From Prorocentrum cordatum (taxonomy: Eukaryota), in contig CAUYUJ010000307.1 in NCBI GenBank assembly GCA_963575745.1, positions 62,001 through 115,628 of the forward strand: a DNA stretch of 53,628 nucleotides, in the 5' to 3' direction. Of this stretch, positions 4,556 to 7,630 are shown piece by piece (positions within the stretch are counted from its first letter, which is position 1; every line of letters begins with the position of its first letter). The notes under the pieces are model-generated. The model was not told the origin of the DNA and did not search any database. It saw only the letters and a list, made by a program, of their open reading frames with translations. A program made the position numbers and the translations under genes.

Positions 4556-7500
4556 GGGGGCGGTCGCGCGGACGAGGCACTATCCTACGGTGATCCCGCA
4601 GGACCCCTCGACGCACCCAGGCGAGCTCGTCAAGGTCATGCTGGACCGCCTGGGCCCCGAGTTCAGGCACCACATCTGGGTGTTCATGCATCATGAGTCG
4701 ACCCTGCGCGTAGGTACCATCTGTTCGGGGACAGAAGCTCCGATCGTCGCCCTGAAGAGCATCGTTGAAGCGGGAGTGCCGGTCCTGGCTGCAGAGTTTG
4801 GGCCTGTGGACTTCACAATCTCGCATCGCTTCTCAGTTGAGCTCGACGCGGACAAGCGCAGCTTCATCAAGGCCCCCCCCCGCCCCCCAGGCTGATATGC
4901 TGCCCGCCCCCCCGTACGGGTGAATATAGTGAGGTTACCGCGTGAGGAGGAGGAGGAGGAGGAGGAGGAGGAGGAGGCGGAGGAGGAGGAGGAGGAGGAG
5001 GAGGAGGAGGAGGACCACTCTACGCTCCCGACCCCACCGTGATCATTTGATCATTTCGCTACCTAGGGTACGTCGGTCGCCATCTAGACTGCCACGCCCC
5101 CCCACCCCGCGCCCCTGGGCCCCTGGGCCCGCATTGCTAATGTCCATTGCCCAAATCAGAACATCTGGGAATCATCTGATCACCATCGCCCCAGGCAGTG
5201 TCCGACCCGCGCCCGGAGTACCTCTTCGAGGCGGCCGCCGACTTGTCTTCGGACACCGCGCTCAACTATTCGGGAGATGGCCCGCCCTCCGACGCTGACG
5301 CGTCGTCGGCCACGCACGATTCCCAGGTGACGGTTGCCGGCTTCCCGTGCGACGACGTGAGCGAGATGAATACGAATTCCAGCTTATTTCGAACGAGCGT
5401 TGCAGATGGAGTTGGGCGCACGGGTGGTACGTTCGCCAACATCATCACCCATTTCGCGCACCCGGAGGTGAAGAAGCGCATGCTTTTTTCCTTAACTGAG
5501 AACGTGAAGGGGTTGGCCAAGCCCCCCAAAATCATAGATCCAGTGACGAAGGCCCGCGTTACAGGTGACGTGCACCAGTCCAATCTAGCGGCTGCATTGG
5601 ATATGCTGCGGAGTTCGGGGCTGTCCTCATTTGCTTGTCGACTTGACCCCCGGCTCTTCGGATGGCCGCAGGCTCGCGGTCGGTTCTACCTGCCCTCGTT
5701 CAACAGCAAAGTCTTGCACGATATGAACATGTCGGATGCCGAGGTCGCGACCGCCGACGACGCCGCGGTGGCGACGCGGCGACGGCGACGGCGTCGTTAG
5801 ACTCTGCTTATGTGTTAAACGCTAGCGCCAGTCGCCACGGTAGGATACCGATTGGACGATGTGACGTGTGACGGTGACGGTGTGACGGTGTGACGATGGC
5901 TACCGCCTCCGCTGTTGTCGACGACTGCCGCCCTGAGCAGGTATACTCCCTCATGCAGTCCATTTTGGAGAAGACGTGTAATGGCTACGGACTGGTTCCG
6001 TTCGACGCCATCTTGCTTCCTGAGGGTCACCCGGCGCTCCAGCATGCGCCACCACCCGATGCAGCCGCCGACGGTGACGCAGATACCACGCAGCCGCGTG
6101 CGCAAAGACGGGGAGGGGTGTGGGTCATCCGACGACTTCGCCCTCGCCGACGGTGGAGGTCGGTAACGCCGCCCGAGGGATGGGCGGCGTTGTCCCACTG
6201 TCGGCGAATGCGTTGAGTCCTCGGATCCAGCCCCCCCCCCCATCTCTGCGCAGCGACGCAGCAGCAGCAGCCACAGCAGCCACATCACTCAGAGTCTCAG
6301 CCGCACCAGCCATCAGATCAGCAGCCGCAGCCACCGCAGCAGACGCAGCAGCCCAGCCTTCACGACCGCGGTCACGCCAAGTTTGTGCCGACCTTGGCCA
6401 CGATCCACGAAGTGCCCAGCCCTGGCGCGGGCGCGCCTGGTCATCACGACAGGCGCGCTGGTATTGATCTAGAGGCCGAGTTGGAACGCATGCTGGACGA
6501 AGCGATTGACAATGACAAGAGTTCAGCCAATTCGACCGTCCGTTCTGGTGGTACCGACGGCGATGCAGCAGCAGCAGCAGGATCGGGATCGCGTGCCGAG
6601 GAGGGCGCGTCGCCGCCTACGCAGCCGCAGCAGCAGCTGCAGCTGCCACAAGCAGCAGGTGCGAGTACGGCGACGCCGCCTACCGTGTCGTGCCCTTTTG
6701 TTGCGCCTCACGGTGACCACACGCGGTGGGTGAACAAGCACCACGCGGCGGGCGGGCGCCAAGCTGCCAGGCGCGTGGACATCGGCATGTTCACGAACAC
6801 GCTGGCAGATCGCAGGCGCTTTCCAGGTCTGGCGGTGCTCACGGACAGGGAGCGCTCCCAGCTCTACTTGGCGGACGCGACCGTGTCGGAGGCGTCGACC
6901 CGCATCATTGAGGTTGGCCAAACGTTCTCTCGCGTCGGTCCTGGCTCGCAGTACGTGGACTGCGTCACGCCGAGGTCCCGCAGGGTCGAGTCAACAGTGT
7001 TGCCCCAGCCCCGCCCCCCCCCCCCACCCCGAAAAACTGGATAGCTACGGTTGTGACGACCCCTCGTCGCCGCGGCTGGACGCAACGTTCAATTTACAAT
7101 GTAATAATGAAACGCGTGCACCTCCTGTGTGTAATCTGGGTGTCTTGTCCTGACGACCGGCGACCCCCCCCCCATGGCCGCAGGGTCGCTAAGCTCGGGG
7201 CGCTTGCTGTCATGTCCAAGTCCTCGATGTCACGTCCTGCGGGGTGTCTCGATACGTCACACGCCCGTCTTTCCGTACCCCGTACCCTGGCCGAGTTCTT
7301 GCTGTGCCCGTTCCTTCCACTACTCCTCCCCGCCCGCCATACCCTGCGCCCTCCCCGGGTCCCAGATACTTAAATACAGTGCCATCGATACAAGACGCCT
7401 CCCGATTCAGTTGGCGTGCGTGGGTGACGTCCAGGAACCGCATGGCCCACGGCATTGAAGGGCTTCGCTTCCAGGGGATCAGTTACGGGCCCCGCGACTC

Positions 7501-7630
7501 TGTCCTGCCGCAGTTCTCCTCCAAATTGCTCCAAGATCTGGCGGGTAACGCCATGGACGTGGGGTGCTTGATCAACCAGTACCTGCTGGCCTTCACTATC
7601 CTCGGTGCCGCATTTGATCGTGGCGAGGGG
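4556..7630 (+). CDS. Multi-exon C5 cytosine DNA methyltransferase, DNMT5-type catalytic domain (5' and 3' ends uncertain; possible frameshift or small intron at ~6100-6400)
   Basis: Motif I LRVGTICSGTEAP and II HRFSVELDADKRSFIK (exon ending 4871, GC donor). Exon 5195-5743 has IV AGFPC, GRTGGTF, VI TENVKGL and VIII FGWPQARGRFY. Exon from 5941 has FDAILLPEGHP. LTDRE...EVGQTFSR...CVTP ends 6974. Exon from 7411 has GIEGLRFQG (IX) and LLQDLAGNAM (X). Intron phases are compatible at 4871/5195, 5743/5941 and 6974/7411. Confidence 0.88.

What the first reader, a model, noticed from the sequence alone, without database searches (positions are those of the whole stretch)
4556..7630. DNMT5-type catalytic domain with intact motifs but no visible SNF2 ATPase
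Seen: all major motifs including AGFPC and ENV, plus DNMT5-like signatures (CSGTEAP, GxTGxTF, CVTP, GxExLxxQG, DLAGNAM), spread over at least 4-5 exons with GC and GT donors. Established: canonical DNMT5 is fused to a SNF2 ATPase. No helicase motifs follow here. Inference: a stand-alone, possibly ATP-independent enzyme.
Basis: partly seen in the sequence, partly recalled or inferred. Interest (0 to 1): 0.72.

Follow-up and report, generated by a model that had tools for sequence, protein, structure and literature searches.

The report
Stand-alone DNMT5-type cytosine methyltransferase gene
This is an apparently intact, intron-containing gene for a DNA cytosine methyltransferase whose catalytic domain resembles DNMT5 but lacks DNMT5's ATPase motor; motor-less versions are already reported in algae, so it is solid but fairly ordinary.

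Summary
On the + strand, about 3780-7645, lies a multi-exon C5 cytosine methyltransferase gene. I modelled 6 exons (one GC donor, four GT donors; 682 codons, no stop). The product matches 51 of 53 columns that are at least 80% conserved in 44 homologs. Those homologs form a large family: 164 clusters at 50% identity, all 150 listed at most 908 aa. All 30 with a recognisable motif X end 22-156 residues after it, so the family stands alone. A 44-sequence family profile hits C. neoformans Dnmt5 (PDB 7r76) at E 2e-62 across the whole methyltransferase domain, target-recognition domain included. M.HhaI is next at 8e-16. No SNF2_N or Helicase_C match appears in 416 ORFs of the 53.6 kb window.

The window enzyme keeps a canonical Phe-Pro-Cys in motif IV, where Dnmt5 has Thr-Ser-Cys, a substitution tied to its ATP-gated SAM pocket. 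That fits ATP-independent activity but does not prove it.

SNF2-less DNMT5 homologs are already in print for dinoflagellates and "other algae". So this is a new member of a known kind. There is no RNA evidence, both gene ends are undefined, and no whole genome or DNMT6 reference was available.

The parts
3780..3914 (+). Modelled upstream exon (exon 0) carrying the family's N-terminal 'L-x-E-F-P-V' motif. The 5' end of the gene and the start codon were not found.
   Evidence: Coding-like GC3 periodicity at 3675-3900. The motif LQEFPVI is present. The same pattern occurs in 10 of 40 homologs, 62-76 aa before motif I, and 75 aa before it in this model. It occurs only 3 times in the 53,626 aa of the three + frames. 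Splice sites: acceptor gag|GAG at 3779/3780, donor GGG|GTGCGA.
4602..4871 (+). Exon 1: motif I (CSGTEAP, 4722-4742) and motif II region (FSVELD, 4830-4847). It ends at a GC donor.
   Evidence: Family HMM E 7.5e-19. tblastn with 8 of 9 homologs. phmmer against PDB hits only Dnmt5 7r76, E 0.0035. No GT is available before the in-frame stop at 4893.
5195..5743 (+). Exon 2: motif IV AGFPC (5336-5350, catalytic Cys codon 5348-5350), GRTGGTF (5414-5434), ENV (5498-5506), and motif VIII QARGR (5669-5683).
   Evidence: Family HMM E 1.1e-47. Pfam PF00145 E 5.1e-4, 20 bits, below the 22-bit cut-off. Identical in a DNA contig of run X1.
5938..6073 (+). Exon 3: LLPEGHP (6013-6033). The acceptor could equally be 3 nt further on (5941).
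   Evidence: Family HMM E 6.9e-5. tblastn with P0005 and P0007. Splice sites.
6074..6253 (+). Modelled intron 3 (ACG|GTGACG ... gcgcag|). It removes the only in-frame stop (6214-6216).
   Evidence: GC is flat across codon positions at 6080-6260, while periodicity is present on both sides. The frame is kept. Run X1 shows a 1-nt insertion at 6230 inside it.
6254..6974 (+). Exon 4: a Q/A-rich low-complexity spacer (about 6254-6714), then the target-recognition domain with WVNKHH (6727-6744), LTDRER (6838-6855), flip-out loop EVGQTFSR (6910-6933) and CVTP (6961-6972).
   Evidence: Family HMM E 5.2e-14 for 6628-6984. Homologs carry a variable spacer at the same place. Donor GAG|GTCCCG.
7411..7645 (+). 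Exon 5 (minimum extent): GIEGLRFQGI (7451-7480) and motif X DLAGNAM (7535-7555). The frame stays open to a stop at 8021-8023, but periodicity is lost after about 7650.
   Evidence: Family HMM E 9.8e-22. Acceptor ttcag| at 7410/7411 gives C-V-T-P-S-W-R-A-W, matching the homologs' spacing. Identical in a contig of run X1. Tail periodicity.

Best explanation
This is a nuclear, intron-containing host gene with at least 6 exons, about 3780 to 7645-8023 on the + strand. It encodes a SAM-dependent DNA cytosine-5 methyltransferase of roughly 680-800 residues. The protein belongs to a large family of stand-alone eukaryotic enzymes whose whole catalytic domain, target-recognition domain included, is homologous to that of DNMT5.

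Shown:
- The five core exons (exons 1-5) are collinear with the family HMM; the modelled upstream exon 0 got no HMM match and rests on a short motif and GC3 periodicity.
- All catalytic motifs are intact.
- Neither this locus nor the homologs carry an SNF2 ATPase.

Inferred:
- It methylates cytosine by the usual Cys-attack and base-flipping chemistry: Cys of the Pro-Cys in motif IV, Glu of ENV, and Arg-x-Arg of motif VIII.
- It reads DNA, probably CpG, through a Dnmt5-type recognition domain. The orphan-guanine Gln of the flip-out loop and the Cys of CVTP are kept.
- Because it has the canonical Phe-Pro-Cys instead of Dnmt5's Thr-Ser-Cys and has no ATPase, its cofactor pocket probably does not need ATP-driven remodelling.
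- Whether it acts de novo or as a maintenance enzyme is open. The Asn that senses the parental methyl group in Dnmt5 is Thr here.
For: - **Family HMM.** It matches five ordered pieces with E 7.5e-19, 1.1e-47, 6.9e-5, 5.2e-14 and 9.8e-22, with no other copy in the window.
- **Gene model.** The 6-exon model has 682 codons and no stop. It is identical at 51 of 53 columns that are at least 80% conserved in 44 homologs. The two misses are the start Met and F>M in motif X; Dnmt5 also has M there.
- **Exon support.** GC3 periodicity is present in exons and flat in introns. In contigs of DNA run X1, 3 of 3 indels and 5 of 6 substitutions fall outside modelled exons. This is weak support and X1 may be the source sample.
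- **Family size.** The family has 164 representatives at E<=1e-3, and all 150 listed are at most 908 aa.
- **Family stands alone.** All 30 homologs with motif X end 22-156 aa after it. Nine of 13 show PF00145 at E<=0.01 (6 above Pfam's 22-bit cut-off) and none shows any other Pfam family. Their contigs are mostly 2-4 kb. Metagenome locus L002 has a stop 60 aa after motif X.
- **Profile against PDB.** Dnmt5 7r76 scores E 2e-62 over one stretch, chain 305-735. Next come HhaI 7.6e-16, Dcm-like 2.3e-9, DNMT2 6.9e-5, DNMT1 5.2e-4 and DNMT3A 8.7e-4.
- **No SNF2.** No SNF2_N or Helicase_C in 145 + 137 + 134 ORFs. Four SNF2 motif patterns recalled from memory gave only one isolated DEGH match at 44120.
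- **Dnmt5 mechanism.** The roles of S439, T462, the motif I and II substitutions, Q668, N669 and C684 come from bioRxiv 10.1101/2021.10.01.462825 (sections 5, 6 and 17 read).
- **Residue mapping.** Mapping to the window goes through the alignments. It assumes paper numbering equals chain index + 29, which is my inference.
- **Precedent.** Literature for SNF2-less DNMT5 is.
Against: - There is no transcript evidence, so every splice site is a model.
- The start codon and the 3' end are not defined.
- The GC donor of intron 1 has a poor consensus.
- On their own, the window's exons resemble Dnmt5 only weakly. Exon 1 scores E 0.0035; exon 2 gave no PDB match and exon 5 none to a methyltransferase at E<=1. 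The DNMT5 link therefore rests on family profiles.
- No tree against DNMT5a/b/c, DNMT6 or the chlorophyte DNMT6-like class could be built, because no reference sequences were obtainable.
- No whole genome is held, so a separate SNF2 partner cannot be excluded.
- Three of the four Dnmt5 SAM-pocket substitutions are retained (motif I Cys, motif II aliphatic, motif V Thr). The pocket may still be weak or regulated.
Confidence: 0.7

Rival explanations
1. Split DNMT5. The methyltransferase is still gated, but by an SNF2 ATPase encoded elsewhere in the genome that binds it in trans.
For: The window keeps Dnmt5-like substitutions at three of four SAM-pocket positions: motif I Cys, motif II Leu and motif V Thr. 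No whole genome could be searched.
Against: The Pro-Cys dipeptide is canonical, as in 71 of the 88 family members where my pattern found motif IV. No SNF2 was found on either strand of 53.6 kb. The homologs end shortly after motif X and lack the long helix and RING that connect to the ATPase in Dnmt5.
Confidence: 0.13
2. It is a DNMT6-type or other orphan stand-alone enzyme, possibly acting on RNA, and only resembles DNMT5 superficially.
For: Like DNMT6 it has no companion domains. I could not place DNMT6 sequences in a tree. The Atlas look-alikes are 520-550 aa PF00145 proteins from eukaryotes, one recorded as a diatom.
Against: The profile match to Dnmt5 spans the recognition domain at E 2e-62. 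Dcm-like enzymes reach only 2.3e-9, and these are the bacterial group reported as DNMT6's nearest branch (PMC7463849, passages read). Shared Dnmt5 signatures are CSGTE, G-x-T/S-G-x-x-F, C-x-T-P, G-x-E-A-L-x-x-Q-G-I and DLAGNAM.
Confidence: 0.07
3. It is a decaying or unexpressed gene copy in a repeat-rich region.
For: No start codon was found. The surroundings are rich in satellites, long trinucleotide arrays and reverse-transcriptase fragments. One in-frame stop needs a modelled intron. Intron 1 has a poor GC donor.
Against: It is identical at 51 of 53 conserved family columns. The 682 modelled codons contain no stop. Periodicity is confined to the exons. All indels seen in X1 contigs lie in modelled introns.
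Confidence: 0.07
4. It is a methyltransferase carried by a transposon or an integrated virus.
For: Retrotransposon-borne DNMTs exist in dinoflagellates and charophytes (PMC5890265). Reverse-transcriptase fragments lie at 27906-28520 and 38469-38753.
Against: The gene is exon-rich. No long terminal or inverted repeats flank it within 1-14000. The reverse-transcriptase fragments are 20-30 kb away. In viral contigs only generic phage methylases matched, at 23-38% identity in the best segment over motifs IV-VIII; 80 of the 154 tblastn-confirmed relatives were kept.
Confidence: 0.03

Closest known systems
DNMT5 (C. neoformans Dnmt5, PDB 7r76/7r77/7r78/7t02; DNMT5a/b of algae and fungi)
   Same: The methyltransferase domain is homologous from motif I to motif X, recognition domain included (family profile E 2e-62). 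Shared signatures are the motif I Cys (CSGTE), G-x-T/S-G-x-x-F, the flip-out-loop Gln, the C-x-T-P Cys, G-x-E-x-L-x-x-Q-G-I and DLAGNAM.
   Different: It has no SNF2 ATPase, RING fingers or chromodomain. Motif IV is Phe-Pro-Cys instead of Thr-Ser-Cys. The methyl-sensing Asn669 equivalent is Thr here and mostly Ser in the family. A long low-complexity spacer sits between motif VIII and the recognition domain.
SNF2-less DNMT5 homologs: dinoflagellate 'DNMT5c' (PMC9998398), Symbiodinium DNMT5 without ATPase (bioRxiv 10.1101/2023.01.30.526367; PMC5890265), and 'dinoflagellates and other algae' (PMC12344493)
   Same: A DNMT5-like catalytic domain with no ATPase domain and no other annotated domain.
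   Different: DNMT5c is described with an N-terminal extension of about 1000 aa. The homologs here have 100-300 aa before motif I, except P0102 with about 480, and the window's N-terminus is undefined. I could not compare sequences directly, so identity of the two groups is not shown. The motif IV state of DNMT5c was not available to me, because Supplementary Fig. 2 of PMC9998398 is an image.
DNMT6
   Same: A stand-alone eukaryotic C5-MTase without companion domains, found in algae and protists.
   Different: DNMT6 is reported as nearest to bacterial Dcm-like enzymes and is linked to RNA methylation (PMC7463849, PMC12344493; passages read). This family's profile prefers Dnmt5 over Dcm-like chains by more than 50 orders of magnitude. 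No direct comparison with DNMT6 was possible.

Membership tests
C5 cytosine methyltransferase superfamily (PF00145) | Conserved motifs I, IV (Pro-Cys), VI (ENV), VIII (R-x-R) and X (G-N) in canonical order | tested here: met
   Pfam PF00145 on exon 2 scores E 5.1e-4 (20 bits, below the 22-bit cut-off). Nine of 13 homologs match PF00145 at E<=0.01, six of them above the 22-bit cut-off.
DNMT5 | Catalytic and target-recognition domains specifically related to DNMT5 | tested here: met
   Family profiles against PDB give 7r76 at E 8.1e-36 and 2e-62, and the next family at 7.6e-16. The window joins that family at E 1.1e-47. Of the window's exons taken alone, only exon 1 hits 7r76 (E 0.0035). No phylogeny was made.
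DNMT5 | C-terminal SNF2-family ATPase (DEXDc/HELICc), with or without RING fingers, fused to the methyltransferase | tested here: not met
   No SNF2_N or Helicase_C in 416 ORFs on both strands of the window. All 30 homologs with motif X end 22-156 aa after it. There is no transcript evidence for the 3' end.
DNMT5 | SAM-pocket substitutions that make the pocket regulatable (C. neoformans: motif I Cys, motif II Ile388, motif IV Ser439, motif V Thr462) | tested here: inconclusive
   The window has Cys (motif I), Leu (motif II) and Thr (motif V), but Pro in motif IV. This comes, by two-step alignment.
SNF2-less DNMT5-like enzymes (DNMT5c and similar) | DNMT5-like catalytic domain with no ATPase domain | tested here: met
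   As in the rows above.
SNF2-less DNMT5-like enzymes (DNMT5c and similar) | Clusters with published DNMT5c sequences and has a long (about 1000 aa) N-terminal extension | not testable with these tools
   No reference sequences could be obtained. The window's N-terminus is undefined. The homologs' N-termini are mostly 100-300 aa.
DNMT6 | Groups with DNMT6 references and bacterial Dcm-like enzymes rather than with DNMT5 | tested here: inconclusive
   Only an indirect test was possible: Dcm-like PDB chains score 2.3e-9 against 2e-62 for Dnmt5. No DNMT6 sequence was available.

The most novel reading that the evidence does not exclude
This large stand-alone clade may be an ungated form of the DNMT5 catalytic module, either the pre-fusion ancestral state or a reversion. 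In it, the canonical Phe-Pro-Cys of motif IV would free SAM binding from ATP-driven remodelling. The result would be an ATP-independent CpG methyltransferase, possibly with de novo activity, in lineages that lack DNMT1 and DNMT3. If so, comparing the two forms would pinpoint the few residues that create DNMT5's ATP gate.
Probability: 0.25. Interest if true: 0.55.

Novelty: new member of a known kind. Interest (0 to 1): 0.3.

Why it matters
DNMT5 is the model for ATP-gated, high-fidelity maintenance methylation. Natural versions of its catalytic module that work without the SNF2 motor offer a ready comparison for asking which residues impose the gate. The window enzyme and most of its relatives carry Pro-Cys where Dnmt5 has Ser-Cys, while keeping other Dnmt5-like pocket residues. 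That points to a simple, testable swap. Beyond this, the locus adds an exon-level gene model for a family otherwise seen here only as unnamed or generically named predicted proteins, mostly on short contigs of environmental assemblies. It does not change the current picture, since loss of the ATPase in dinoflagellates and other algae is already reported.

Tried and rejected
- **Whole genome.** None is held for this window, so SNF2 partners and gene copy number could not be checked.
- **RNA.** No RNA holder is listed. Only one DNA run (X1, contigs at about 5x) holds the stretch. Laying it gave sequence confirmation but no splicing information.
- **Word-index protein searches.** Exon 2 against longer proteins found none. 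The 5-sequence alignment against proteins of 1302-3715 aa found none, which the tool itself calls weak evidence. The 'near' search returned only P0007, P0151 and P0152. So I retrieved no canonical DNMT5 or DNMT6 sequences and could not build a tree.
- **Single-exon phmmer against PDB.** Exon 2 gave nothing. Exon 5 gave only a chance cyclin match at E 0.53.
- **Whole-frame Pfam scan.** I sent the individual ORFs instead.
- **Structure prediction.** The tool was not accepting jobs, so there was no fold comparison.
- **Names.** Cluster look-up of 10 homologs gave only 'hypothetical protein' and 'site-specific DNA-cytosine methylase', so the family's taxa remain unknown. The Atlas gave 'Eukaryota, Bacillariophyta' for one member.
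- **Metagenome contigs.** Only 5 short loci (L001, L002, L003, L006, L029) are true relatives. The rest of the 80 are generic bacterial methylases.
- **Viral contigs.** Only generic phage methylases matched, so I rejected a viral origin.
- **Transposon carriage.** Rejected, because no flanking long repeats were found.
- **Earlier findings of this scan.** None.
- **Huff and Zilberman 2014.** The paper is not held under the id I tried. What I say about it comes from other papers' citations.
- **Alternative 5' exon boundary.** I first treated 'HYPTVIP' (4578-4598) as the N-terminal family motif. I dropped that in favour of the exon at 3780-3914.
- **Atlas search with the 1328-aa ORF.** No usable hit.
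Full report
**Setting**

The window is high-GC eukaryotic DNA, 53-71% GC in 2-kb windows. It has no Rfam matches and many satellites and very long trinucleotide arrays. No whole genome is held for it.

Yes. Stop-to-stop ORFs on the + strand between 4100 and 8020 carry recognisable C5-methyltransferase segments in three different frames. Motif positions:
- CSGTEAP 4722-4742
- AGFPC 5336-5350
- GRTGGTF 5414-5434
- TENVKGL 5495-5515
- DPRLFGWPQARGRFY 5645-5689
- LLPEGHP 6013-6033
- EVGQTFSR 6910-6933
- CVTP 6961-6972
- GIEGLRFQGI 7451-7480
- DLAGNAM 7535-7555

Pfam sees only exon 2, and weakly (PF00145, E 5.1e-4, 20 bits against a 22-bit cut-off).

An exhaustive HMMER search of 1.84 billion representatives with exon 2 found 164 proteins at E<=1e-3. 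The best shows 47% identity and all 150 listed are at most 908 aa. An HMM built from the 38 homologs of at least 550 aa finds five collinear pieces in the window and nothing else on either strand:

| Window piece | HMM positions | E-value |
|---|---|---|
| 4596-4874 | 72-162 | 7.5e-19 |
| 5210-5749 | 166-332 | 1.1e-47 |
| 5926-6129 | 326-396 | 6.9e-5 |
| 6628-6984 | 389-479 | 5.2e-14 |
| 7412-7627 | 477-549 | 9.8e-22 |

**Gene model**

The model comes from homology, splice-site inspection and codon-position GC. There is no RNA support.

Exons:
- 3780-3914
- 4602-4871
- 5195-5743
- 5938-6073 (start alternatively at 5941)
- 6254-6974
- 7411 to at least 7645

Introns are 687, 323, 194, 180 and 436 nt. 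Donors are GT, GC, GT, GT, GT, and all acceptors are AG.

Points on individual junctions:
- The GC donor after 4871 is forced. No GT lies between the last conserved residue and the in-frame stop at 4893.
The GT-AG intron 6074-6253 removes it in frame. GC is flat across codon positions at 6080-6260 but periodic on both sides.
- The junction 6974/7411 gives C-V-T-P-S-W-R-A-W, matching the spacing in the homologs.

The upstream exon was found from a coding-like periodicity peak at 3675-3900. It carries LQEFPVI. The same motif occurs in 10 of 40 homologs with enough N-terminal sequence, 62-76 residues before motif I, and 75 residues before it in the model. The pattern occurs only 3 times in the 53,626 residues of the three + frames.

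The model has 682 codons and no stop. It is identical at 51 of 53 columns that are at least 80% conserved among 44 homologs. The misses are the start Met and Phe>Met in motif X, where C. neoformans Dnmt5 also has Met.

Contigs of the one public DNA run that holds the stretch (about 5x, possibly the source sample) are identical over exons 2 and 5. Their 3 indels (5873, 6230, 7163) all lie in modelled introns, as do 5 of their 6 substitutions. This is weak support.

Open points:
- No start codon was found, so further 5' exons are likely. A coding-like stretch lies at about 2000-2950.
- After about 7650 the open frame runs to a stop at 8021-8023 but loses periodicity. The true 3' end is unknown.

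**Which family?**

The full-length homologs are 450-750 aa. They are collinear with all the window exons. Where Pfam sees anything, they carry only PF00145 (9 of 13 at E<=0.01, six of them above Pfam's 22-bit cut-off, no other family).

Among homologs of at least 450 aa with a recognisable motif X, all 30 end 22-156 residues after it. Their contigs are mostly 2-4 kb. A metagenome relative, L002, shows a two-exon gene with a stop 60 aa after motif X. So the family stands alone.

A 5-sequence profile hits C. neoformans Dnmt5 (7r76, 2348 aa) at E 8.1e-36, with the next hit at 2.4e-6. A 44-sequence profile gives:

| PDB target | E-value |
|---|---|
| Dnmt5 7r76 (one stretch, chain 305-735: motif I through the recognition domain to motif X) | 2e-62 |
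| M.HhaI | 7.6e-16 |
| Dcm-like | 2.3e-9 |
| DNMT2 | 6.9e-5 |
| DNMT1 | 5.2e-4 |
| DNMT3A | 8.7e-4 |

All of these except Dnmt5 match only around motifs IV-VIII. The printed alignments show Dnmt5's CSGTESP, GESGRTF, CLTP, GREALALQGI and DLAGNAM opposite the family's equivalents.

Two caveats apply. The window's exons alone barely reach Dnmt5: exon 1 scores E 0.0035, exon 2 matches nothing and exon 5 only a chance cyclin hit at E 0.53. I also could not obtain DNMT5a/b/c or DNMT6 sequences for a tree. DNMT6 is disfavoured only indirectly. Its nearest branch is reported to be Dcm-like bacterial enzymes (PMC7463849, passages), and those score far below Dnmt5 here.

**Is an SNF2 domain anywhere near?**

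No SNF2_N or Helicase_C match was found in:
- 145 + strand ORFs of at least 100 aa
- 137 + strand ORFs of 55-99 aa
- 134 - strand ORFs of at least 105 aa

Four SNF2 motif patterns that I recalled from memory gave a single isolated DEGH match at 44120. Exons shorter than 55 codons would escape this test, and the rest of the genome could not be searched.

**How it probably works**

The Dnmt5 structural paper is bioRxiv 10.1101/2021.10.01.462825 (sections 5, 6 and 17 and further passages read). It reports that Dnmt5 replaces four SAM-pocket residues of M.HhaI (F18, W41, P80, L100) by small or hydrophilic ones, including Ser439 in place of the Pro of the Pro-Cys dipeptide and Thr462 in motif V. 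These form a lid that blocks SAM until the SNF2 domain remodels the pocket.

I mapped these through the alignments, taking paper numbering as chain index + 29 (my inference). The window compares as follows:

| Position | C. neoformans Dnmt5 | Window |
|---|---|---|
| Motif I | Cys | Cys |
| Motif II | Ile388 | Leu |
| Motif IV | Thr-Ser-Cys (Ser439) | Phe-Pro-Cys |
| Motif V | Thr462 | Thr |

GFPC is also the commonest state in the family: 71 of the 88 members where my pattern found motif IV. One has GSPC, and the pattern found nothing in the other 64 of 152.

In the flip-out loop, the Gln that reads the orphan guanine (Q668) and the Cys next to C5 of the target cytosine (C684, in CLTP) are conserved. 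The Asn that senses the parental methyl group (N669) is Thr in the window and mostly Ser in the family.

My reading is a DNA, probably CpG, methyltransferase that does not need an ATPase. Its de novo versus maintenance character is open. The chemistry is inferred from conserved motifs and nothing was assayed.

**Comparison with what is known**

Loss of the ATPase from DNMT5 homologs is in print:
- Dinoflagellate DNMT5c 'lack ATPase SNF domains' (PMC9998398, passages and peer-review file).
- A Symbiodinium DNMT5 homolog without the ATPase domain (bioRxiv 10.1101/2023.01.30.526367, passage).
- Symbiodinium Dnmt5 and Dnmt6 paralogues mostly without extra domains (PMC5890265, passage).

I could not test whether the family found here is the same as DNMT5c. 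DNMT5c is described with an N-terminus of about 1000 aa, whereas these homologs mostly have 100-300 aa before motif I.

PMC9998398 says that DNMT5 enzymes carry Ser in motif IV. Whether that covers DNMT5c I could not see, because the alignment is an image. My three paper searches were not aimed at the Pro-Cys state of SNF2-less forms. I therefore make no claim that it is unpublished.

**Rivals**

I considered four rivals: a trans-acting ATPase partner, a DNMT6-like or RNA enzyme, a decaying copy, and carriage by a transposon or virus. The last is weakest. No flanking long repeats were found in 1-14000. The reverse-transcriptase fragments lie 20-30 kb away. Viral contigs yielded only generic phage methylases.

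**Verdict**

Its novelty is modest: a new, well-delimited genomic member of an already reported kind, with one mechanistically suggestive detail in motif IV.

Noticed in passing
window 453-1473: A 22-bp satellite (consensus CTGACGAGCCCCAGGGGGGTCT, about 34 copies at 729-1473) with an inverted block of the same unit at 453-596. The arms are up to 81 nt long and 88-92% complementary.
   Followed up: partly
window 21321-25395 and 31849-32921: Kilobase-long trinucleotide arrays: (ATG)n 21321-23193, (GAG)n 23671-24409, (GAT)n 24431-25395 and (ATG)n/(GGA)n 31849-32921. They coincide with strong GC skew of up to +0.5 between 22 and 26 kb.
   Followed up: no
window 50456-50724: A homopolymer run of about 269 C (91% matches). 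It may be an assembly artefact or a real poly-C tract.
   Followed up: no
window 27906-28520 and 38469-38753: Weak reverse-transcriptase matches on the + strand: RVT_1 at E 9.2e-6 and RVT_2 at E 6.4e-5, both below Pfam cut-offs. They suggest decayed LINE-type and Copia-type retroelements.
   Followed up: no
window 44410-48393 (+): An uninterrupted 1328-codon ORF that reads like real protein, including a Cys/His-rich stretch. It has no Pfam family and no usable Atlas hit.
   Followed up: partly
window 2000-2950 (+): Strong codon-position GC periodicity (third-position GC up to 1.0) in an Ala-rich ORF, followed by a Cys-containing segment. This could be an upstream neighbour gene or further 5' exons of the methyltransferase gene.
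   Followed up: partly
window 10828-11948 (+): Coding-looking ORFs downstream of the methyltransferase gene (10828-11136 and 11235-11948), with no Pfam family. They are probably a separate gene.
   Followed up: no
window 35422-35879: Tandem repeats with periods of 91, 36 and 54 nt built on a TGTGGTGTACAC-like unit.
   Followed up: no
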